The notes below the pieces were generated by a model. It was given only the letters and a program-made list of their open reading frames with translations. It was not told the DNA's origin and did no database searches. Below are positions 16,843-57,074 of a DNA stretch of 57,074 nt, piece by piece. The stretch comes from a virus. The first letter of the stretch is position 1; each line of letters starts with the position of its first letter. Location: the UHGV virus genome UHGV-2195224. The stretch is one strand, 5' to 3'. Made by a program: the position numbers and the translations under genes.

Positions 16843-17079
16843 ATGTCTCGACTAATCACTTTACAGGACTGGGCTAAAGAAGAATTTGGGGACTTAGCAC
16901 CAAGTGAGCGAGTTCTGAAAAAATACGCGCAAGGGAAAATGATGGCCCCACCCGCTATAAAAGTTGGTCGCTACTGGATGATTGACCGAAATTCCCGTTT
17001 TGTAGGAACGCTTGCAGAACCGCAACTCCCAATAAACGCAAACCCAAAACTCCAACGGATAATCGCTGATGGCTGCTAG
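16843..17079 (+). CDS. xis: excisionase-like protein
   Basis: 78-aa ORF with strong SD aggagg, directly upstream of and overlapping int; homologous to 55721-55966. Confidence 0.6.
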   Translation: MSRLITLQDWAKEEFGDLAPSERVLKKYAQGKMMAPPAIKVGRYWMIDRNSRFVGTLAEPQLPINANPKLQRIIADGC

Positions 17080-18211
17080 ACCCCGATCTCACAAAATCTC
17101 TATACCCAATTTATATTGCAAATTAGATAAGCGAACCGGAAAGGTATATTGGCAATACAAACATCCACTATCCGGTCGTTTTCATAGCTTAGGAACTGAT
17201 GAGAATGAAGCAAAACAAGTTGCTACTGAAGCAAATATCATTATTGCTGAACAACGTACCCGACAAATATTAAGCGTCAATGAGCGTCTGGAAAGAATGA
17301 AAGGCAGGCGCTCAGACATTACGGTGACAGAATGGCTTGATAAATATATTTCTATCCAGGAGGACAGGCTGCAACATAATGAACTAAGACCCAACTCCTA
17401 TCGGCAAAAAGGCAAACCCATTCGTCTTTTCCGTGAGCATTGTGGAATGCAACACCTCAAGGATATTACCGCACTTGATATTGCCGAAATAATTGATGCT
17501 GTAAAGGCTGAAGGTCATAACAGGATGGCGCAAGTCGTGAGAATGGTGTTAATCGACGTCTTCAAAGAAGCACAACACGCAGGACATGTTCCGCCAGGAT
17601 TTAACCCAGCGCAGGCAACAAAACAACCGCGAAATCGAGTAAACCGCCAAAGATTATCACTGCCCGAATGGCAGGCAATATTTGACAGCGTAAGCAGACG
17701 GCAGCCCTATTTAAAATGTGGGATGCTACTTGCTCTTGTCACTGGACAACGTTTAGGCGATATCTGCAATTTGAAATTCTCTGATATCTGGGACGACATG
17801 TTGCACATTACTCAGGAAAAAACCGGTTCAAAACTTGCTATTCCGCTTAACCTGAAATGCGATGCTCTGAATATTACCCTTCGTGAAGTTATATCTCAGT
17901 GCAGGGATGCTGTTGTTAGTAAATATCTGGTCCATTACCGTCACACAACCTCTCAAGCAAACAGAGGAGACCAGGTTTCTGCGAATACTCTGACAACGGC
18001 TTTTAAAAAGGCCAGGGAAAAATGTGGCATAAAATGGGAGCAAGGAACTGCGCCCACATTTCATGAGCAGCGATCTCTGTCAGAACGGTTATATCGGGAA
18101 CAGGGTCTGGATACGCAAAAGTTGTTAGGCCATAAATCCAGAAAAATGACCGACCGATACAATGATGATCGTGGTAAAGACTGGATTATCGTAGATATCA
18201 AAACAGCATAG
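17069..18211 (+). CDS. int: tyrosine integrase (lambda Int family), icd-targeting type
   Basis: 380-aa ORF; catalytic-domain motifs ...LVTGQRLGDI..., ...HEQRSL..., ...LLGHKSRKMTDRY...; adjacent to the icd-derived att core; paralogous to 55947-57074. Confidence 0.9.
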   Translation: MAARPRSHKISIPNLYCKLDKRTGKVYWQYKHPLSGRFHSLGTDENEAKQVATEANIIIAEQRTRQILSVNERLERMKGRRSDITVTEWLDKYISIQEDRLQHNELRPNSYRQKGKPIRLFREHCGMQHLKDITALDIAEIIDAVKAEGHNRMAQVVRMVLIDVFKEAQHAGHVPPGFNPAQATKQPRNRVNRQRLSLPEWQAIFDSVSRRQPYLKCGMLLALVTGQRLGDICNLKFSDIWDDMLHITQEKTGSKLAIPLNLKCDALNITLREVISQCRDAVVSKYLVHYRHTTSQANRGDQVSANTLTTAFKKAREKCGIKWEQGTAPTFHEQRSLSERLYREQGLDTQKLLGHKSRKMTDRYNDDRGKDWIIVDIKTA

Positions 18212-18220
18212 AAAATAGCC

Positions 18221-18258
18221 AGTTTTGGGGAAGGGTTTTGGGGAAAGTTTTGGGGAAG
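18221..18258. repeat. three tandem direct repeats (a/g)gttttggggaa(g/a), candidate Int arm-type sites
   Basis: agttttggggaag / ggttttggggaaa / gttttggggaag directly after the int stop. Confidence 0.4.
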
Positions 18259-18279
18259 ATTTTACATCATCATAAAACA

Positions 18280-18305
18280 ACGGGCGTGTTATACGCCCGT
18301 TTCAA
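18280..18305. terminator. bidirectional hairpin between int and the icd fragment
   Basis: stem acgggcgt/acgcccgt with gttat loop, flanked by AT-rich tracts. Confidence 0.45.
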
Positions 18306-18324
18306 TATTTAACACATGTAGAGA

Positions 18325-18489
18325 TTACATGTTCTTGATGATCGCGTCACCAAACTCTGAACATTTCAGCAGTTTAGCGCCTTCCATCAGACGTTCGAAG
18401 TCATAGGTTACGGTCTTCGCGTTGATTGCGCCTTCCATACCTTTAACAATCAGGTCTGCGGCTTCAGTCCAGCCCATATGGCGCAGCAG
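18325..18489 (-). pseudogene. icd: isocitrate dehydrogenase (icd) 3-prime-terminal fragment = prophage att core
   Basis: Minus-strand translation [54 protein letters not shown] then stop; an in-frame TAA sits immediately upstream so it is not fused to an icd body. Confidence 0.8.
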
Positions 18490-18933
18490 TAGTTAGATGG
18501 TTCATATACAACCGCATGATAAATAAAAATAATCCTATAATTTTATTGTAAATCAACTGGCTTTTATCTTTCCCCTAACCTATTGATTATCAATGTATGT
18601 TTTTTGGTTTTGATAACCGTTTTAGAGGGCAAAAACAAGTGCCTGTACCTATCAGCCCCTTCACGGCAAAGGGATTTTAAATCATGCGTGTTTTCACAAA
18701 CTATCAATGGCTTAACTAAATTTTTCGCCAATAACGTACGCTGTGAGTGAGAGGTGGATATGAAGTTACACACTCCCGGAAAATAAAGAATTGAGCGTTA
18801 TCTCATGCTATTAATGAAAAGTGTTTGCTTAATAGATTACATATAACTATGATTCAAGCCCAATTAAAGTCGTGTGTCTTTGGCTTAAATTGGCAAACAA
18901 ACAATCAAGTCAAGAATATAAAGGAACTATTCA

Positions 18934-19902
18934 ATGAATAAGAATTATAAAACGTTTAAACTTGAACTATGGGAGAAGTTTAAGCATCAATGTGCTTACT
19001 GTGGCACTAAACTTTATGAACCATTGATGGCGGATGTTGATCGTTTTTTCCCAAAATCAAAGTATACTGACTTCCAAGATGCTACAGACAACCTGCTCAT
19101 CGCTTGTAAGGCATGTAGCATGATTAAAAAAGATCAGTTTCCTCTCGATGAAAATGGCAAACCATTACTTCTAAATCCTTTAAATGAAAGTTTTTCAGAA
19201 CATATAAAACAAAATAAAAATGGATATTTAGAAGGTTTAACTGAGCGAGGACATGCGACTATAGATATATTACAGTTGAATAGACCTTCATTAATTGAAC
19301 AGCGCATTCTAGATGTTATTGATATGCAGTACTCTGATGATCGAACGCTATCTGAACGAGATGTCTATATGACATTCCAAAATAGTATGCAGAACGCCAT
19401 AAAACTAAATGATGCTCAGTTAAAAATTGATAGCACTTTACAAATACAAATGTCGTATATGCTATATGCCAATACAATAACTTCCTTGGAAACATATTTA
19501 TGTGACAGATTTATTTCCCTAATTCATGGTAGCCAAACTAATTTGAGAAATTTTGTTGAAACCTTCAAAGATTACAATACAGAAAAATTCTTACTTTCTG
19601 AATTATTTATAAGGCATGAACAAATAGAGTCTCAAGCGATAGAGTCTATGAAGAGTGTTCTTTATCATAATCTGCCAAAAGTAAGTGGCATGTATCGAGA
19701 TACCTTTGGTATTAAATTCCCTGTTTTCACAGAAGTTTATAAAAGCGTGTTAATTAGGCATGACTTAGTTCATCGAGCAGGTAAAACAAAAAATGGTAAT
19801 TTTCATAAGTTAGATTCAGAGTCAGTTAAAGATGTTATCAAAAAATGCTGTGACTTGGTTGAACAACTAGAAAAAGAGCTTAAAGATTGTGCATCATTCT
19901 AG
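18934..19902 (+). CDS. uncharacterized protein: N-terminal HNH-like Cys4 zinc-finger domain plus C-terminal helical domain with R-x4-H (HEPN-like) motif
   Basis: 322-aa AT-rich ORF; CAYCG...DVDRFFPKSKY...DNLLIACKACSMIKKD (Arg where the catalytic His is expected); C-terminal ...SVLIRHDLVHRAGK...; SD aagga. Confidence 0.55.
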   Translation: MNKNYKTFKLELWEKFKHQCAYCGTKLYEPLMADVDRFFPKSKYTDFQDATDNLLIACKACSMIKKDQFPLDENGKPLLLNPLNESFSEHIKQNKNGYLEGLTERGHATIDILQLNRPSLIEQRILDVIDMQYSDDRTLSERDVYMTFQNSMQNAIKLNDAQLKIDSTLQIQMSYMLYANTITSLETYLCDRFISLIHGSQTNLRNFVETFKDYNTEKFLLSELFIRHEQIESQAIESMKSVLYHNLPKVSGMYRDTFGIKFPVFTEVYKSVLIRHDLVHRAGKTKNGNFHKLDSESVKDVIKKCCDLVEQLEKELKDCASF

Positions 19903-20095
19903 GTAATTGCCACCAAATCGAAGGTGATCGCGCTTGCGGTCACCAAAAGTAATAAACTATTCATTCCCATTCGATCATCTGAACCAACACAATTTTATTT
20001 AATAAAGTTGACCTACTTCATTATTTGATACCCATCCAATGTGCGCAAGGGCTGCTTCTGGCACATGGTTACCCTTGATGAGAAGGTAGATCACC

Positions 20096-20219
20096 GCTAT
20101 GGGGTGTCGGGGGCGGAGGTTCAAATCCTCTCGTGCTGACCAAAAATCCTCGAAGAACCAGCCTGTTACGGCTGGTTTTTTTTGCCTGTTTTCTGAACGG
20201 GGAAGCAATGGGGAAATTA
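20096..20219 (+). repeat. direct repeat copy 1: 3-prime 45 nt of a tRNA-Pro gene (to ACCA at about 20142) plus its terminator and flank
   Basis: ctatggggtgtcgggggcggaGGTTCAAATCCtctcgtgctgACCA then aaccagcctgttacggctggttttttt; no 5-prime tRNA half upstream. Confidence 0.7.
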
Positions 20220-20405
20220 GCTTACGATTGACCCCACTGCGAAAAGCGCAGATTTTTATCAATGGACGTACATAGGGTAGATAAGGCACAATACTGCTTC
20301 AATGTCGTCTGATGGTATTGTAATACTAATTACATCAGATGATTTAACTAGATTAGTTCTTTATAGAAATCATTCTTGAATATTAATTGGCTGACTGAGG
20401 TTTTT

Positions 20406-21191
20406 ATGGATGAAAAATACAGAAGATTTGTTGATGAGGTTGACTTTTCAAGACAATTATTAGGCATAGGGCTCACTTCCCTAAGGAAAGCAAATTTTGC
20501 AAGTAGAGGATTGTATTTTCAAGCATTATCCGGCATCAGTTTAGGATTAGAAAGGCTTATGAAACTTTGCCTTATGCTTGATGATTATAATAAAAATGGA
20601 AAATATACATCACGCAAAAAATTAAGAGATTACGGTCATAACTTAAGCAAGTTATTCAACCTAGTCATTGAGAGAGTTGATTCTCCCTCTGGCTTAAATG
20701 AAATTCACTACAGAGTGATGGAGTTGTTAACTAATTTTGCAAATTCATCAAGATATAGTAATATTGATTTCATTACTAATGACAACGACAATGATCCCAT
20801 GAAGCAATGGTATAATGAAATCGATAAGAGCATTTACGATAAAATATTAACAAAAAGACAAAAAAATATAATTGATAAAAAATGCGAGCAATACCGAAGC
20901 TATGGTGAAACACTGCCATGCTATGTGCTTGGATATTATGATGAAGACAGAAACCATATAAACTCTGCAGGGGATTTAAATTATTTACTTAAAAGAAGTG
21001 AAATGCTTGCTGGTTATCGCACTTTATTAGTTATTCATATCATAGAATGCATCTATAACATATTAGACTCAATGACAGTTCAAGCAAAAGATAATCACTT
21101 CCACCATCTTGAATTAGGTCGTTTTTTTGCAACCATCATTTATGGCTCTGATAGAGACAAAATCAATAGAAAAAATTTTATCCGTATGTGA
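20406..21191 (+). CDS. uncharacterized AT-rich protein (about 261 aa from ATG at 20406) bracketed by tRNA-Pro-fragment repeats
   Basis: SD gagg 6 nt upstream; MDEKYRRFVDEVDFSRQLLGIGLTSLRKANFASRGLYFQALSGISLGLERLMKL...; no recognised catalytic motif. Confidence 0.55.
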   Translation: MDEKYRRFVDEVDFSRQLLGIGLTSLRKANFASRGLYFQALSGISLGLERLMKLCLMLDDYNKNGKYTSRKKLRDYGHNLSKLFNLVIERVDSPSGLNEIHYRVMELLTNFANSSRYSNIDFITNDNDNDPMKQWYNEIDKSIYDKILTKRQKNIIDKKCEQYRSYGETLPCYVLGYYDEDRNHINSAGDLNYLLKRSEMLAGYRTLLVIHIIECIYNILDSMTVQAKDNHFHHLELGRFFATIIYGSDRDKINRKNFIRM

Positions 21192-21267: not shown

Positions 21268-21389
21268 CTATGGGGTGTCGGGGGGCGGAGGTTCAAATCC
21301 TCTCGTGCCGACCAAAAATCCTCGAAGAACCAGCCTGTTACGGCTGGTTTTTTTGCCTGTTTTCTGAACGGGGAAGCAATGGGGAATTA
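21268..21389 (+). repeat. direct repeat copy 2: tRNA-Pro 3-prime fragment (to ACCA at about 21314) plus terminator and flank
   Basis: Near-identical to 20096-20219 with a few substitutions/indels (e.g. ctgacca vs ccgacca). Confidence 0.7.
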
Positions 21390-21588
21390 CAGGGGAAAAA
21401 CCCCGTCAAATGTTGCCCCCGTATCGCTAGCACACAATGATTAAGTATCTTTTTCACTTTCGGAATTCATCAATTCACAAAACCATCATTCCGATTTACC
21501 TTACATGCTCCTTTTAAATCTTTAACGGTGTGCACCACTTTTTCTAACTGCCCTATACTTTCAGTCTGACATACGGCTGGAGGTTTCT

Positions 21589-22257
21589 ATGTGTGGACGC
21601 TTTTCACAGTCAATGACCCGTGAAGATTATCTTGCCCTTCTCGCTGATGAATCAGAACGCGATATTCCATACGATCCAGAACCCATCGGAAGATTCAACG
21701 TAGCGCCAGGAACAAAAGTTCTGCTTCTGAGCGAACGTGATGAGCAGTTGCATCTTGATCCAGTTATCTGGGGATACGCCCCCGGTTGGTGGGATAAACC
21801 GCCGCTCATTAATGCACGGTCTGAAACTGCTGCCACCAGCAGAATGTTTAAACCACTCTGGCAGCATGGCCGCGCAATTTGCTTTGCTGATGGATGGTAT
21901 GAGTGGAAAAAGGAAGGCGACCAAAAACAACCCTACTTTATTCACCGGGCAGACGGTCAGCCGATTTTTATGGCGGCGATCGGCAGCACACCATTCGAAC
22001 GTGGAGATGAAGCAGAAGGTTTCCTGATAGTTACAGCTGCAGCTGACAAAGGACTGGTTGATATTCACGACAGACGACCACTGGTACTGCTACCGGAAGC
22101 CGCGCGTGAATGGATGAGGCAGGATGTTGGAGGGAAAGAAGCAGCGGAAATTGCAGCCGACGGTGTTGTACCGGCTGATAAATTTATATGGCACGCCGTA
22201 ACGCGTGCCGTCGGGAATGTGAAAAATCAGGGCGCCGAACTAATAACGCCAATATGA
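21589..22257 (+). CDS. SOS-response-associated peptidase (SRAP / YedK-like abasic-site processing protein)
   Basis: 222-aa ORF starting MCGRFSQS (catalytic Cys2) with SD ggagg; occupies the slot where a Pin/Gin invertase gene would be expected. Confidence 0.7.
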   Translation: MCGRFSQSMTREDYLALLADESERDIPYDPEPIGRFNVAPGTKVLLLSERDEQLHLDPVIWGYAPGWWDKPPLINARSETAATSRMFKPLWQHGRAICFADGWYEWKKEGDQKQPYFIHRADGQPIFMAAIGSTPFERGDEAEGFLIVTAAADKGLVDIHDRRPLVLLPEAAREWMRQDVGGKEAAEIAADGVVPADKFIWHAVTRAVGNVKNQGAELITPI

Positions 22258-22451
22258 TTACATCACCGGACAATCATCAAACTCCGCGTTCCTCGCATCA
22301 TTAATGATGTAAGTAATCACCCCGAATATCGCGGGAGCAGAACCGTAACCGTCATCATCTACTGGTAGCATCTCCCTTCTCCCGCTCTCCAAATTAATCA
22401 GGTGGTGTTGAGGATGAGTCCGATATCGCTTGATCCTGAACTCCCCGTCGA

Positions 22452-22934
22452 TTGCACATATCAGCAGTGAGCCATCGCAGTTTGGGAGAAGGTGCTCCAG
22501 CTATTGGCGTTCCGTTCTTCTGGGCGTCCGCTGCAATGCCAAATACTGTAATCGACAGCTGGTCCAGTATGGTGTTTTTGAAGTTCAACGGGGCGAAATT
22601 TTCTGCCACTGATTACCCTGTGCTGGCGAAAGTGTTTCCGGCGTTGGCATTACCTGACGCACGCGGTGATTTCATTCGTGTCTGGGATGACGGGCGAGGT
22701 GCAGATGGTGGTCGCGAATTATTAAGCTGGCAGGCAGCTACAAACTTTTCTCAGTTTGCCGGGAATATAGGCGAAGGTGCGGGACACGCAATTAACTTTC
22801 ATGATGGCATCGCCGGAAATCAGCCAGGATTTTCACGATTTAATTTCACCAGTAACTCTGTGGGTGATGGTGTGAATTTTGTTGCTGTCAGACCGCGAAA
22901 TATTGCATTTAACTTTCTGGTGAGGGCTAAATAA
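22452..22934 (+). CDS. tail-fibre alternative C-terminal segment (silent inverted cassette)
   Basis: ...GEGAPAIGVPFFWASAAMPNTVIDSWSSMVFLKFNGAKFSATDYPVLAKVFPALALPDARGDFIRVWDDGRG...; begins at the inverted-repeat crossover half-site, no constant N-terminal part. Confidence 0.7.
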   Translation: MHISAVSHRSLGEGAPAIGVPFFWASAAMPNTVIDSWSSMVFLKFNGAKFSATDYPVLAKVFPALALPDARGDFIRVWDDGRGADGGRELLSWQAATNFSQFAGNIGEGAGHAINFHDGIAGNQPGFSRFNFTSNSVGDGVNFVAVRPRNIAFNFLVRAK

Positions 22935-23527
22935 TGAAACCTGTTTTTGATGAAAATGGGCTGGCTACAGTGCCGGGCGATATGCGTTGTTTTTATTATG
23001 ATGCTGAAACATCTGAGTATACGGGCTGGTCTGATGAATATATTAATACTGGCGTAAGTATGCCCGCCTGTTCAACTGGTATTGACCCGGGCGAAAACAT
23101 TCTGGGAAGAGTGACGGTATTTACAGGTAAGGGATGGAGCCATGAGGAAGACCATCGCAATGAGACTGTTTACTCAATCGAAAATGGTGCAGCTGTTACA
23201 GTGGATTATATCGGTGCCATCAAAGACGGTTATGTCACGCTTTCACCGTTAACGCCATACGATAAATGGGATGGTGAGAAATGGGTGACAGACACTGAGG
23301 CACAACACAGTGCCGCAGTAGACGCGGCAGAAGCACAGCGCCAGTCACTGATTGATGCAGCAATGGCTTCCATTAGTCTGATTCAGCTGAAATTACAGGC
23401 CGGACGGAAACTGACTCAGGCAGAAACAACCCGACTTAACGCCGTGCTGGATTACATTGACGCGGTGACGGCAACAGATACCAGCACCGCGCCGGATGTC
23501 ATCTGGCCTGAACTGCCGGAGGCGTAG
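22934..23527 (+). CDS. tail fibre assembly protein (Tfa; partner of the silent fibre cassette)
   Basis: 197-aa ORF MKPVFDENGLATVPGDMRCFYYDAETSEYTGWSDEYINTG... Confidence 0.8.
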   Translation: MKPVFDENGLATVPGDMRCFYYDAETSEYTGWSDEYINTGVSMPACSTGIDPGENILGRVTVFTGKGWSHEEDHRNETVYSIENGAAVTVDYIGAIKDGYVTLSPLTPYDKWDGEKWVTDTEAQHSAAVDAAEAQRQSLIDAAMASISLIQLKLQAGRKLTQAETTRLNAVLDYIDAVTATDTSTAPDVIWPELPEA

Positions 23528-23927
23528 GCCATTCAATATCGGGTGCTGTTGACGTATCAACACGCATCAGCAGCACACGGTATTTCTTCCATTGGGTGAG
23601 AGTTGTAGCTTCTTCATCAGTTGCGATATCAGCATCAACAGCATCCTGACGCCAGGATATTTCACTGTCAGCCTTTTCCCGTAATTGGGATTTTTTAACT
23701 TCAGCAATAGCTATTAATTCCTTTTTGGTCGGCTGAGGAATATCTATCAGTGCTGGTTTTCCATTCAGTGTTCCAATCTGTTTTCCTGGTGGAATATCCA
23801 TAAATAACTTTTTATGTTCTTCCTCACTGACTATTACACCATCATCAGGCCACAGACCTGATGCCTCAAATTTTTCTTTCTCCGATATGGGGAAAAAGCC
23901 ATTTGCTTTAGCGCTCCATACGTACAT
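23499..23927 (-). CDS. tail fibre assembly protein (Tfa; partner of the expressed fibre)
   Basis: 142-aa ORF MYVWSAKANGFFPISEKEKFEASGLWPDDGVIVSEEEHKKLF...; C-termini of the two convergent Tfa genes share ...RVDTSTAPDIEWP... Confidence 0.8.
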   Translation of the reverse strand: MYVWSAKANGFFPISEKEKFEASGLWPDDGVIVSEEEHKKLFMDIPPGKQIGTLNGKPALIDIPQPTKKELIAIAEVKKSQLREKADSEISWRQDAVDADIATDEEATTLTQWKKYRVLLMRVDTSTAPDIEWPTPPAVQAR

Positions 23928-23928
23928 A

Positions 23929-24513
23929 TCAATACCCCACCGCTATAATGTCCACATTAAATCCCCCGGGACCTGCCTGCCAGATGCTGGCCCCTGTTAA
24001 TGATTTTGTTTGATGAACAACCGCCACATTTGCTGGTGATTGTGTTTCAGTTGTTACAGTACCGATATCATTCCAGTTAATTGAGATGGAATAGTTCGTT
24101 GTTGTAAACGACCGGGGGAAAGTTATATGTCTTACATTAGTGCCAATAGGAAATCCAAGATAAACACGCTGAATTATCATTCCTCCAGGTAACATAACCC
24201 AGTTAGCACCTTCTCCCAAACCAAGGTTTTCGAGAGCCGTTTTCACCGTGCCATCCGATTTGATATCGCCAAACGGATTCTTGCGGCTTAACAGCAGCGC
24301 ACGAAGCGCTGTAAGCAGCTGGTCATGCCGCCCCTTCTCCAGGCTGGCACCGGATGCCTCCACAACACTGCAAAGTTCCTCCTGCAACATGTCAAAGTAG
24401 TCATCATCCAGATCGGTGGCAGGTGTGCCGGTCTGGGGGTTACCACGGGTAAAACCGTTCTTACCCGCGCCGAACTTATCCTTCTGCGCGGTTTTCGTGT
24501 CTATACGATGCAT
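23929..24513 (-). CDS. tail fibre protein (Mu S / e14 StfP-like), expressed orientation
   Basis: 194-aa [50 protein letters not shown]...; contains the 26-bp crossover site at the constant/variable junction. Confidence 0.8.
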
Positions 24514-55720: not shown

Positions 55721-55966
55721 ATGCTTCAAATGCTGACACTTGAGGAATGGGCTGCGGAAAAATTTAGGAGTAACCCTCCAAGTGTGTCCACATTGCGTCG
55801 TTATGCTAAGCAGAATTTATTTTGTCCACCGGCAATGAAACAAGGTCGACTATGGCGAGTACGTGAGGACGCAGAGTTAGTTGGAGAATTAGTTACTCCT
55901 GTCATTAAGAAAAGTGATTCTATTATTCTACAAAGGATTTTAAGTAATGGCAGCCAGACCACGTAA
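55721..55966 (+). CDS. xis: excisionase-like protein (paralog of 16843-17079)
   Basis: 81-aa ORF MLQMLTLEEWAAEKFRSNPPSVSTLRRYAKQNLFCPPAMKQGRLW...; overlaps int start. Confidence 0.55.
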   Translation: MLQMLTLEEWAAEKFRSNPPSVSTLRRYAKQNLFCPPAMKQGRLWRVREDAELVGELVTPVIKKSDSIILQRILSNGSQTT

Positions 55967-57074
55967 GAATAATGTTTCAGTCCCGAACTTGTATCCGCTC
56001 TATAGCAGAAAAGTAAATAAAGTTTATTGGCGATATAAGCATCCAGTGACCGGGAAGTTTCATTCTTTGGGCACAAACGAAGCTGAAGCCATTGCTATTG
56101 CCACTGAGGCCAATACACGCCTAGCTGAGCAAAGAACCCGGCAGATTCTAGCTATCAGTGACAGGATCGCAACCAGCAAAGGAAAAGCAATCACAACGTC
56201 AACCTGGTTAGATCGCTATCAAGCAATCCAGGAAGACAGACTGAAAAGTGGCGATATAAAGCTCAACACCTATAAACAGAAAGCCAAACCAGTATCCTTG
56301 CTCAGGGAACGAGCAGGACTGAAGTTGATATCAGCCGTTGATGTCAGAGATATAGCACAATTACTTGATGAGTATATCTCTGCTGGACAGCCTAGAATGG
56401 CCCAGGTCGTAAGGTCTGTATTGATCGATGTGTTTAAGGAAGCACAGCATTACGGCGAAGTTCCACCAGGGTATAACCCTGCTCTTGCAACGAAGCAACC
56501 CAGAAGGAAAATTAGCCGTCAACGCCTCAGCCTAGAAGAATGGAAAAAAATATTCGATATCGCAGACGCCGCTCATCGTTATATGGGAAATGCCATGCTC
56601 CTAGCTTTGGTCACAGGGCAGCGTTTAGGAGATATATCCAAAATGAAATTTAGTGATATTTGGGAGGATCATCTTCACGTCATTCAGGAAAAGACCGGGA
56701 GCAAAATCGCTATCCCTCTTTCTTTACGTTTGAATGCTATCAACTGGTGTTTACGTGATGTAGTAGCTCGCTGCCGTGACTACGCAGTCAGCCCATACTT
56801 AGTGCATTTTTTCCGTACTACATCACAGGCTGAACGTGGCGCACAGGTAAAAGCTAATACACTAACGATGAACTTTAGCAAGGCACGTGATCTGGCAGAA
56901 ATTGATTGGGGTACTGGAACTCCAGCAACTTTTCATGAACAAAGATCTTTATCTGAGCGTCTTTACAAGGAACAAGGGATTGATACCAGAAAGTTACTGG
57001 GCCATAAAACCCAGCAGCAAACCGATCGTTACCATGATGACCGAGGGAAAGGTTGGAGCAAAGTAGCATTGTAA
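55947..57074 (+). CDS. int: tyrosine integrase (paralog of 17069-18211)
   Basis: 375-aa ORF ending at the last base of the window; ...LVTGQRLGDI..., ...HEQRSL..., ...LLGHKTQQQTDRY... Confidence 0.9.
   Translation: MAARPRKNNVSVPNLYPLYSRKVNKVYWRYKHPVTGKFHSLGTNEAEAIAIATEANTRLAEQRTRQILAISDRIATSKGKAITTSTWLDRYQAIQEDRLKSGDIKLNTYKQKAKPVSLLRERAGLKLISAVDVRDIAQLLDEYISAGQPRMAQVVRSVLIDVFKEAQHYGEVPPGYNPALATKQPRRKISRQRLSLEEWKKIFDIADAAHRYMGNAMLLALVTGQRLGDISKMKFSDIWEDHLHVIQEKTGSKIAIPLSLRLNAINWCLRDVVARCRDYAVSPYLVHFFRTTSQAERGAQVKANTLTMNFSKARDLAEIDWGTGTPATFHEQRSLSERLYKEQGIDTRKLLGHKTQQQTDRYHDDRGKGWSKVAL

What the first reader, a model, noticed from the sequence alone, without database searches (positions are those of the whole stretch)
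20406..21191. AT-rich 271-aa ORF of unknown function carried as a repeat-flanked cassette
Seen: strong SD, very AT-rich coding sequence unlike the flanks, no recognisable motif (RKKLRDYGH does not fit canonical HEPN spacing). Inference: horizontally acquired accessory gene, plausibly a stand-alone defence or anti-defence protein given its cassette-like context next to the HNH gene.
Basis: inference. Interest (0 to 1): 0.55.

Follow-up and report, generated by a model that had tools for sequence, protein, structure and literature searches.

The report
Orphan HEPN-fold prophage cargo gene
A real, AT-rich, horizontally moving gene in a prophage's accessory slot encodes a 261-residue protein with a HEPN-type fold that lacks the usual catalytic histidine; it is probably a stand-alone anti-phage gene from an unnamed family, but its function is untested.

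Summary
The gene runs from ATG 20406 to the stop at 21191 and encodes 261 aa, not 271; 271 is the ORF from an upstream TTG. GC is 32%, against 48% for the window. It sits between two 119/120-nt direct repeats.

The repeats are not cassette ends. Each is the 3' half of tRNA-Pro (proL) plus its terminator, a relic attachment site inside a prophage that now sits at icd.

Relatives sit alone in:
- P2-like prophage hotspots
- a type I R-M operon, between hsdS and hsdR
- an island with a SIR2-pAgo and a CBASS cyclase and effector
- plasmids, next to a dGTPase
- regions beside filamentous prophages

No partner gene is conserved. dN/dS is about 0.1.

Best reading: a single-gene conflict or defence effector of the HEPN superfamily with a non-canonical active site. 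That is a new variant of a known kind. Function and chemistry are inferred, not shown.

The parts
20406..21191 (+). CDS of the 261-aa protein 'X'. Residues about 1-170 form a classical-type HEPN-fold domain and residues about 171-261 form a helical C-terminal domain.
20550..20564 (+). Codons E49-R50-L-M-K53, the 'ExxxK' element of the classical HEPN signature.
   Evidence: E49 84/85, R50 85/85 and K53 84/85 across a family alignment with about 25-30% pairwise identity. The classical HEPN alignment A4 has the nearly invariant E39...K43.
20634..20639 (+). Codons G77-H78, the conserved 'GH'.
   Evidence: H78 is present in 83/85 sequences. hhalign aligns it with the invariant G55-H56 of classical HEPN proteins.
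20751..20768 (+). Codons R116-Y117-S-N119-I-D121, the position of the HEPN Rx4-6H motif. Arg is kept and the His is replaced by Asp/Asn.
   Evidence: R116 84/85, Y117 85/85, N119 82/85; position 121 is D in 58 and N in 23 of 85. hhalign pairs R116-Y117 with R90-Y91 of RYPDAH in classical HEPN.
20397..20400 (+). Shine-Dalgarno GAGG, 5 nt upstream of the ATG.
   Evidence: Read directly from the sequence.
20329..20405 (+). Upstream region that travels with the gene. It presumably holds the promoter and 5' UTR.
   Evidence: DNA homology to the Klebsiella P2-like prophage copy starts at 20329 and ends at the stop codon. The consensus scan found no sigma-70 match here, so the promoter is inferred, not shown.
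20097..20215 (+). Repeat copy 1: tRNA-Pro(GGG)/proL 3' half from the anticodon loop (20097-20142), then 73 nt of downstream sequence that includes the proL terminator hairpin.
   Evidence: Repeat families D1, D2 and D6. Alignment to the intact proL gene of E. coli 100181. The hairpin sequence is the same as the terminator-like site the scan called in copy 2, but the scan did not call it in copy 1. ARAGORN and Rfam find no intact tRNA.
21268..21386 (+). Repeat copy 2: the same proL 3' half (21268-21314) plus terminator (21324-21353). It continues without a break into the proL-SRAP junction seen in prophages integrated at proL.
   Evidence: Window 21270-21599 is 93.7% identical to L012 6015-6345.
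18934..19902 (+). Neighbouring gene (context, not a partner): a 322-aa HNH endonuclease fused to a RiboL-PSP-like HEPN domain with a canonical RHDLVH motif (aa 275-280).
   Evidence: PADLOC PtuB 1e-23. Pfam HEPN_RiboL-PSP 0.011 and HNH_4 0.034. phrog_29321 2.7e-19. Motif position. It is absent next to X homologues outside the E. coli lineage.
18271..18500 (-). icd 3' fragment, the attachment-site junction between the two prophages integrated in tandem at icd.
   Evidence: The translation matches the isocitrate dehydrogenase C-terminus. It is annotated as a partial icd in AH01. It occurs once in the window.
21589..22257 (+). SRAP (SOS-response-associated peptidase) gene, the first conserved gene of the prophage's accessory end.
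   Evidence: Pfam SRAP 6.8e-51. It is annotated as SRAP in AH01 and 100181.

Best explanation
X is a self-contained, single-gene accessory ('moron') gene carried in the variable cargo slot at the att-proximal end of an e14-like prophage integrated at icd. From memory, this is the slot where E. coli K-12 e14 carries mcrA.

The protein has an N-terminal HEPN-fold domain of the classical (PF05168-like) type and a helical C-terminal domain. The family keeps an almost invariant polar cluster: E11, E49-R50-x-x-K53, H78 and R116-Y117-x-N119. The His of the HEPN RNase motif is replaced by Asp/Asn.

Most likely mode of action (inferred). The protein is made in the lysogen from its own promoter and is insulated by the proL terminators on both sides. 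It stays latent until an infecting phage is sensed, probably through the C-terminal domain. The HEPN domain then acts on RNA or a nucleotide substrate and stops growth of the infected cell, that is, abortive infection or superinfection exclusion that benefits the prophage.

Shown: a real gene under purifying selection, horizontal mobility, the HEPN fold, no conserved partner, and residence in defence and prophage hotspots.

Inferred: the defence function, RNase or nucleotide-directed chemistry, and the trigger.

The flanking repeats are relic proL attachment sites. The gene most likely arrived by integration or recombination at the secondary proL' site next to SRAP, and everything else of the incoming element has since been lost.
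For: Fold and sequence signature:
- The AF2 model is confident (pLDDT 88, pTM 0.89).
- Homologue P0017 (61% identical) exceeds the Pfam HEPN gathering score, 25.5 against 22 bits. Three of 85 family members hit HEPN and three hit HEPN_AbiV.
- hhalign aligns GH78 and R116-Y117 with the GH and RY of classical HEPN proteins.
- Conserved polar residues lie only in the N-terminal 135 residues.

Family: 1132 clusters at 50% identity have E<=1e-3, and almost all are 250-285 aa single-domain-architecture proteins.

Contexts of homologues:
- Gallibacterium: hsdM-hsdS-X-hsdR, with a 4-nt overlap between hsdS and X.
- Metagenome island: hsdR, SIR2-pAgo, CBASS cyclase, 4TM effector, then X.
- Klebsiella IncF plasmids: dGTPase, X, and a NACHT protein nearby.
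- A P2-like prophage between gpS and gpV, a region described as a P2 tail-gene hotspot (PMC13586616).
- A P2-like prophage after ogr.
- Beside filamentous prophages.
- DUF2971/PDC-S31 nearby in three independent loci.

The same slot of related E. coli prophages holds HipA-like kinase + DUF3037. DefensePredictor validated that pairing as defence system DS-6 (PMC13092281).

The gene is independent of its neighbours. dN/dS is 0.08-0.11.

Origin of the repeats. In E. coli UTAK-5 a satellite-like element sits in tandem at the same proL' site.
Against: - There are no experimental data for any family member. The accession appears in no searchable paper and not in the held DefensePredictor supplements.
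- No PADLOC v2, PHROG or NCBIfam model matches.
- The target itself scores only 12.5 bits (E 0.17) on Pfam HEPN. Foldseek against PDB and BFVD finds nothing significant. hhalign is weak (E 0.04).
- The defining catalytic His of HEPN RNases is absent from the whole family, so RNase activity is doubtful.
- From memory, the ExxxK element is the one that nucleotidyltransferase-associated, non-RNase HEPN domains such as KNTase use to bind nucleotide and substrate.
- Several homologues are solitary insertions among housekeeping genes (aspS-X-nudB in what look like Pasteurellaceae contigs, and a Flavobacterium sugar-use locus). These contexts carry no defence signal.
- tblastn against 50,697 deposited phage genomes gives no hit.
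- No antitoxin or immunity partner was identified that would explain how a toxic effector is held in check.
Confidence: 0.55

Rival explanations
1. X is a non-catalytic HEPN protein. It binds a nucleotide or a signalling molecule, or binds and blocks another protein. In this reading it acts as a regulator, a sponge or an anti-defence factor that protects the prophage or plasmid from host immunity, rather than killing infected cells.
Against: The strict invariance of eight polar residues at about 25% overall identity looks more like an enzyme site than a plain binding surface. Embedding inside a chromosomal type I R-M operon and inside a SIR2-pAgo/CBASS island is typical of defence genes, not of anti-defence genes. 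In P2-like prophages defence genes far outnumber anti-defence genes (PMC13586616). There is no match among predicted phage protein structures or deposited phage genomes.
Confidence: 0.2
2. X is the toxin of an addiction or toxin-antitoxin-like module. Its main role would be to stabilise the mobile element that carries it, with an unrecognised antitoxin such as a small RNA, as in AbiV/abiV2.
Against: There are no tandem repeats. The 195-nt upstream region does not fold significantly better than shuffles (z -1.5). Rfam gives no hit. No small conserved adjacent ORF or MNT gene appears in any context. The gene also sits in non-mobile chromosomal positions.
Confidence: 0.12
3. X works together with the upstream HNH-HEPN gene as a two-gene system. 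The repeat-flanked unit would then be one half of that system.
For: The two genes are adjacent, on the same strand, equally AT-rich (0.324 and 0.318) and always found together in the 8 E. coli genomes and 2 IMG/VR contigs.
Against: A proL terminator-type hairpin and a second small hairpin lie between them. None of the roughly 25 loci with X homologues outside this E. coli prophage lineage encodes an HNH-HEPN relative (tblastn). The co-occurrence is explained by one shared prophage lineage (99.6-100% DNA identity).
Confidence: 0.05

Closest known systems
Classical HEPN domain proteins (Pfam PF05168; e.g. Thermus TT1696/1UFB, 4NQF, AF0298, ST0689; usually paired with a minimal nucleotidyltransferase)
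   Different: X is twice as long, with an extra conserved helical C-terminal domain of about 90 aa. It has no adjacent nucleotidyltransferase gene in any context. The His of RYPDAH (Rx4H), nearly invariant in PF05168 proteins, is Asp/Asn in X's family. The target itself is below the Pfam threshold.
AbiV (Lactococcus abortive-infection HEPN RNase; Pfam PF18728; PDB 9bj5)
   Different: AbiV has a canonical Rx4-6H motif, degrades rRNA and needs an RNA antitoxin, abiV2. X lacks the His, no RNA partner was found, and the hits are below Pfam's threshold.
Tha (tail-activated HEPN anti-phage system of S. aureus prophages)
   Same: A prophage-encoded, single-protein system of about 300 aa with a HEPN domain plus a second domain of unknown fold. 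It sits in an accessory position of the prophage and acts by an abortive-infection-like mechanism (PMC11087260).
   Different: In Tha the HEPN domain is C-terminal with a canonical R265NSIMH270. In X it is N-terminal and lacks the His. No sequence relationship was tested or is claimed. It is an analogue in logic, not a relative.
PrrC / RloC anticodon nucleases embedded in type I R-M loci
   Same: The Gallibacterium homologue sits between hsdS and hsdR and overlaps hsdS by 4 nt. From memory, prrC holds the same position in the E. coli prr locus. PrrC's nuclease domain is classed as HEPN.
   Different: X has no ABC-ATPase N-domain and no Rx4-6H motif. Only one lineage of X is linked to an R-M system, and most copies are solitary.
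tRNA-site genomic islets, or tandem arrays of integrative elements at a tRNA att site
   Same: The unit is flanked by direct repeats made of the 3' half of a tRNA gene starting in the anticodon loop. Another E. coli strain carries a satellite-like element in tandem at the same proL' site.
   Different: No integrase or any other gene lies between the repeats. The repeats extend 73 nt beyond the tRNA end. The whole array lies inside a prophage integrated at icd, not at proL. Elsewhere the gene moves without the repeats.

Membership tests
HEPN superfamily | An up-and-down four-helix bundle that superposes on solved HEPN domains | tested here: met
HEPN superfamily | Rx4-6H catalytic motif at the N-terminus of the last core helix | tested here: not met
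   R116 is conserved (84/85). The residue at the His position (121) is D in 58 and N in 23 of 85, and never a conserved His. N119 is nearly invariant instead.
Pfam HEPN (PF05168) | Score at or above the gathering threshold (22 bits) | tested here: inconclusive
   The target scores 12.5 bits, E 0.17. Homologue P0017 (61% identical) scores 25.5 bits, E 1.6e-5. Only 3 of 85 family members match at E<=0.1. Profile-profile hhalign gives E 0.04.
HEPN-MNT toxin-antitoxin modules | An adjacent minimal nucleotidyltransferase (antitoxin) gene | tested here: not met
   No nucleotidyltransferase gene lies next to X in the window or in any of about 20 independent contexts.
AbiV (PF18728) | Match to the AbiV model, plus an RNA antitoxin next to the gene | tested here: not met
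   The target has no AbiV hit. The best family member has E 0.004 and 17.7 bits against a cut-off of 27.1. No repeats or significantly structured flanking RNA were found.
Known or candidate defence systems in PADLOC-DB v2.0 | A hit to any of the 5027 models | tested here: not met
   No hits for the target at E<=1. No hits for six other family members at E<=0.01. Systems newer than 2023 could not be tested.
PrrC/RloC-type R-M-linked anticodon nucleases | An N-terminal ABC-type ATPase domain fused to the nuclease, encoded inside a type I R-M operon | tested here: not met
   X has no ATPase domain. The operon position is matched only in Gallibacterium.
Integron-type or other self-mobile gene cassette | The recombination sites travel with the gene and recur at each new location | tested here: not met
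   In Klebsiella, Xenorhabdus, Proteus, Aeromonas and Pantoea only the CDS plus at most 77 nt upstream is homologous. The proL' repeats occur only in the E. coli prophage lineage. The repeats are tRNA-Pro fragments.
tRNA-site integrative element | Direct repeats of the tRNA 3' end flanking an element that encodes its own integrase | tested here: inconclusive
   The repeats are present and start in the anticodon loop. The 1052 nt between them hold no integrase or any second gene. This is compatible with a decayed or trans-mobilised element, or with homologous recombination.

The most novel reading that the evidence does not exclude
X's family (over 1000 sequence clusters in Proteobacteria and Bacteroidota) would be a new, widespread single-gene immune family. 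In it the HEPN scaffold has been rebuilt around a different active site (E11, E49-R50-x-x-K53, H78, R116-Y-x-N119, D/N121). The chemistry would differ from the classical His-dependent RNA cleavage, for example metal-dependent nuclease activity, or modification or hydrolysis of a nucleotide. The C-terminal helical domain would act as the phage sensor.
Probability: 0.25. Interest if true: 0.65.

Novelty: new variant of a known kind. Interest (0 to 1): 0.45.

Why it matters
If the defence reading is right, this adds a compact single-gene system of about 260 aa, from a large and completely unannotated family, to the list of prophage-, plasmid- and R-M-associated immune genes.

It would also be a HEPN protein that works without the canonical catalytic histidine. 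That bears on how far 'HEPN = RNase' can be assumed in genome annotation.

The locus also shows how prophage cargo slots grow. Relic attachment sites (here proL' inside a prophage integrated at icd) stay usable as landing pads, and they leave single genes bracketed by tRNA fragments and terminators.

Practically, the family is a cheap candidate for a cloning and phage-challenge test.

Tried and rejected
Searches that found nothing:
- The afdb50 library was unavailable.
- Profile searches of PDB sequences with A1 and A2 gave nothing, or only casein-kinase noise at E>0.1.
- ARAGORN and Rfam found no tRNA or RNA family anywhere in the window, so the repeats are tRNA fragments and not genes.
- PADLOC, PHROGs and NCBIfam gave no meaningful hit for X.
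- tblastn against INPHARED phage genomes: no match.

Searches with thin returns:
- The genome-contig scan returned a single locus, the metagenome scan 7 and the viral scan 3.
- P0005 (Pectobacterium) is not on record for context look-up.

Ideas tested and dropped:
- A type-III-like RNA antitoxin or structured leader: no tandem repeats and the fold z-score is only -1.5.
- A two-gene HNH+X system: rejected because the HNH gene is absent from all other X loci.
- RKKLRDYGH as the HEPN motif: rejected; only its GH is conserved.
- A sigma-70 consensus promoter upstream of X: none found.

Literature: searches for the accession, and for X-like peptides in the DefensePredictor supplements, found nothing.

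Full report
**1. What is in the sequence**

The ORF runs from ATG 20406 to the stop at 21189-21191 on the + strand. A GAGG lies 5 nt before the ATG. The mechanical ORF list extends it to TTG 20376, which gives 271 aa. All 22 full-length homologues (259-267 aa) begin at the residue matching the ATG (MDEKY…). The protein is therefore 261 aa, and the '271' in the finding's title is a miscount.

The CDS has GC 0.318. The window as a whole is 0.484 and the downstream SRAP gene is 0.507. The upstream HNH gene is just as AT-rich, at 0.324.

Two direct repeats of 119/120 nt bracket the gene, at 20097-20215 and 21268-21386. They are about 97.5% identical. The 1052 nt between them hold only this gene.

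**2. What the repeats are**

ARAGORN and Rfam find no tRNA in the window. Both repeats nevertheless align to the intact tRNA-Pro gene (proL) of E. coli strain 100181. The match starts in the anticodon loop, runs to the CCA end, and continues about 73 nt further, through the proL terminator.

Copy 2 continues without a break into the sequence that joins proL to an SRAP gene in that strain. There, a related prophage (SRAP, umuDC, DinI, HipA-like kinase, DUF3037, pin, tail fibres) is integrated at proL. So the repeats are relic proL attachment-site sequences.

In the window they lie inside a prophage integrated at icd. An icd 3' fragment sits at 18271-18500. A lambdoid prophage with its integrase (17069-18211) lies to its left. 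The e14-like prophage that carries X lies to its right, and its own integrase is at 55947-57074, 60% identical to the first.

In E. coli AH01 the same right-hand prophage is present alone: iraM | icd' | HNH | X | SRAP | …. In strain UTAK-5 a satellite-like element with capsid and small-terminase genes sits in tandem at the same proL' site next to SRAP. That site is therefore a landing pad in use.

The repeat-flanked arrangement is best read as the residue of an integration or recombination at this secondary site. It is not a cassette that moves with its ends. In Klebsiella, Xenorhabdus, Proteus, Aeromonas and Pantoea, DNA homology to the window covers only the CDS plus at most 77 nt upstream. 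The proL' repeats appear only in the E. coli prophage lineage. Each repeat also carries the proL terminator hairpin. The scan called it as terminator-like only in copy 2; copy 1 has the same hairpin sequence with one more T in the tail. X is thus probably insulated on both sides.

**3. The protein**

Direct family searches give almost nothing. Pfam HEPN scores E 0.17, and PADLOC, PHROGs and NCBIfam return nothing usable.

The close family is small and rare. It has 26 clusters at 40-100% identity, all named 'hypothetical', from Pectobacterium, Klebsiella, Xenorhabdus, Proteus, Aeromonas, Pantoea and Gallibacterium. Only 8 of 5426 complete E. coli genomes carry the gene.

An exhaustive profile search shows a much larger family. 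1132 clusters at 50% identity reach E<=1e-3 and 643 reach E<=1e-10. Almost all are 250-285 aa with one architecture. The family extends to Bacteroidota and Methylococcales.

An AlphaFold2 model built on the family alignment is confident (pLDDT 88.3, pTM 0.89) and entirely helical. Foldseek finds nothing in PDB or BFVD.

- YutE, and TT1696 at 18% identity
- the SO_3166 HEPN toxin
- Csm6 and the sacsin HEPN domain

A homologue 61% identical to X passes Pfam's HEPN gathering score (25.5 against 22 bits, residues 76-169).

Across 85 diverse members the near-invariant residues are E11, G22, G47-x-E49-R50-x-x-K53, G77-H78, F111, R116-Y117-x-N119 and W135. All lie in the N-terminal half.

I built an alignment of true PF05168 proteins. 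The seed was the TT1696 sequence recalled from memory, and it found 98%-identical database proteins that carry PF05168. Its invariant or near-invariant residues are E39…K43, G55-H56 and R90-Y91-P-x-x-H95.

hhalign pairs X's GH78 with GH56 and R116-Y117 with R90-Y91 (E 0.04, weak but in register). X's family therefore keeps three of the four signature elements of the classical HEPN domain. The His of Rx4H, however, is Asp in 58 and Asn in 23 of 85 sequences.

Only its GH is conserved.

dN/dS against orthologues is 0.08-0.11, with dS near saturation. Every orthologue has GC 29-35% whatever its host.

**4. Contexts of relatives**

| Host or source | Position of X | Calls |
|---|---|---|
| Gallibacterium | hsdM-hsdS-X-hsdR; X overlaps hsdS by 4 nt | 17, 64 |
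| Metagenomic island | hsdR, SIR2-pAgo, CBASS cyclase, 4TM effector, X, …, Y-family polymerase, SRAP, Macro | 54, 75 |
| Klebsiella IncF plasmids (78 records) | dGTPase, X, QueH, …, NACHT protein | 45, 46 |
| E. coli IncX plasmid | between type I toxin genes, near a SMEK-domain gene (SMEK is DS-28 in DefensePredictor's tables) | 47, 83 |
| K. michiganensis P2-like prophage | between gpS and gpV, within the P2 tail-gene accessory hotspot | 25, 86 (PMC13586616) |
| Proteus P2-like prophage | directly after ogr | 18 |
| Aeromonas | beside filamentous prophages and an integrase | 23, 40 |
| Xenorhabdus | near HicAB and phage remnants | 24 |
| Pantoea prophage contig | next to DUF2971 | 91 |
| Contigs that look like Pasteurellaceae | aspS-X-nudB | 53, 55, 91 |
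| Flavobacterium | solitary, in a sugar-use locus | 39 |
| Lewinellaceae | next to Imm53 | 38 |

DUF2971 (the PADLOC candidate PDC-S31) lies within a few kb of X in three independent loci.

No neighbour recurs as a partner. The HNH-HEPN gene accompanies X only in the E. coli lineage. About 10 of 16 independent contexts are prophage cargo sites or contain known or candidate defence genes.

In related E. coli prophages the same slot between att and pin carries HipA-like kinase + DUF3037. That pair has been validated experimentally as defence system DS-6 (PMC13092281). From memory, K-12 e14 carries mcrA in this slot.

**5. How it most likely works**

Shown:
- a real, selected, horizontally mobile, single-gene unit
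- a HEPN fold with a conserved polar site
- residence in conflict hotspots

Inferred: the lysogen expresses X. X is latent until a phage cue is sensed, probably through the less conserved C-terminal helical domain. The HEPN domain then attacks RNA or a nucleotide substrate and aborts the infection.

I put about 0.55-0.6 on a defence or exclusion role, and only about 0.3 on RNase chemistry, because the catalytic His is missing. From memory, the ExxxK element is the one used for nucleotide and substrate binding in nucleotidyltransferase-linked HEPN domains such as KNTase (E145/K149).

Rivals:
- a non-catalytic binder, sponge or anti-defence factor (0.2)
- an addiction toxin with an unseen RNA antitoxin (0.12); no repeats or structured RNA were found
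- a two-gene system with the HNH gene (0.05)

**6. Comparison with known systems**

Closest in fold and signature are the classical PF05168 HEPN proteins. X differs from them in four ways: no MNT partner, an extra domain, no catalytic His, and a sub-threshold score for the target itself.

Closest in logic are three systems:
- AbiV, a HEPN RNase with an RNA antitoxin
- Tha, a prophage-encoded single HEPN protein with the opposite domain order and a canonical Rx4H
- PrrC/RloC, for the copy embedded in an R-M operon

X is a member of none of these. It belongs to the HEPN superfamily by fold only.

I found no paper or library entry that describes the family. Catalogues newer than PADLOC v2 could not be queried.

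**7. Verdict**

The 'cassette' is re-read as a gene bracketed by relic tRNA-Pro attachment sites.

This is a new variant of a known kind. It is worth a simple cloning and phage-challenge experiment, but it would not surprise a specialist. Interest is 0.45.

Noticed in passing
window 18934-19902 (+): The upstream neighbour is a 322-aa fusion. Its N-terminal HNH nuclease resembles PtuB and type IV restriction enzymes (CxxC pairs at aa 20 and 58). Its C-terminal domain resembles RiboL-PSP HEPN and has a canonical RHDLVH at aa 275-280 (nt 19756-19773). GC is 0.32. From memory, it sits where K-12 e14 carries mcrA. It looks like a second, independent stand-alone defence candidate.
   Followed up: partly
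window 16843-18500 and 55947-57074: Two prophages are integrated in tandem at icd. A lambdoid one (bet/exo/gam, xis 16843-17079, int 17069-18211) abuts an icd 3' fragment (18271-18500, - strand). The e14-like prophage follows, and its own integrase (55947-57074) is 60% identical to the first. No complete E. coli genome in the collection has this exact junction.
   Followed up: partly
window 18218-18263: Three direct repeats of about 13 nt (A/GGTTTTGGGGAAG/A), spaced 12-13 nt apart, lie between the integrase stop codon and the icd fragment (families D3/D4). They may be arm-type integrase binding sites of the attachment region.
   Followed up: no
window 22258-24229, compared with L001 24210-27461: Compared with E. 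coli AH01, the window lacks about 1.5 kb that carries part of an S24 peptidase pseudogene, DinI and the pin-type invertase. The adjoining 1.75-kb tail-fibre segment (22480-24229) is inverted. The invertible tail-fibre switch therefore appears frozen by an inversion-linked deletion.
   Followed up: partly
L012 9109-10664; L035 8069-9624: Related prophages, integrated at proL, carry HipA-family kinase + DUF3037 in the same cargo region between DinI and pin. DefensePredictor validated this pair as defence system DS-6 (PMC13092281). This supports the view that this prophage end is a defence hotspot.
   Followed up: partly
L035 1-5300 (E. coli UTAK-5): A satellite-like element (SSB, prohead protease/major capsid fusion, small terminase) lies directly upstream of the proL' fragment and SRAP. 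It is inserted in tandem at the same att site that brackets X in the window.
   Followed up: no
L007 5433-6350; L023 3253-3909; L026 850-1581: DUF2971 proteins (PADLOC candidate PDC-S31) lie next to or within about 5 kb of X homologues in three unrelated elements: Aeromonas, a Pantoea prophage contig and a Vibrio plasmid. This could be a shared hotspot or a functional link.
   Followed up: partly
window 20063-20096: The 35 nt just upstream of repeat copy 1 (GGCACATGG…GGTAGATCACCGCT) loosely resembles the 5' half of tRNA-Pro (GGCACGTAGCGCAGCCTGGTAGCGCACCGTC), with an insertion in the D-arm region. Copy 1 may derive from a whole, now degraded, tRNA-like att sequence. ARAGORN does not call it.
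   Followed up: no
window 20307-20345: An imperfect palindrome (TCGTCTGATGGTATTGTAATACTAATTACATCAGATGA) lies 60-100 nt upstream of X's start codon. Homology with the Klebsiella copy begins inside it (20329). It may be an operator or a recombination scar.
   Followed up: no
L030 10131-13551: In the metagenomic defence island that carries an X relative, a Y-family polymerase, an SRAP gene and a Macro-domain gene follow within 5 kb. This repeats the SRAP/umuDC neighbourhood of the E. coli prophages. It may be coincidence or a recurrent cargo combination.
   Followed up: no
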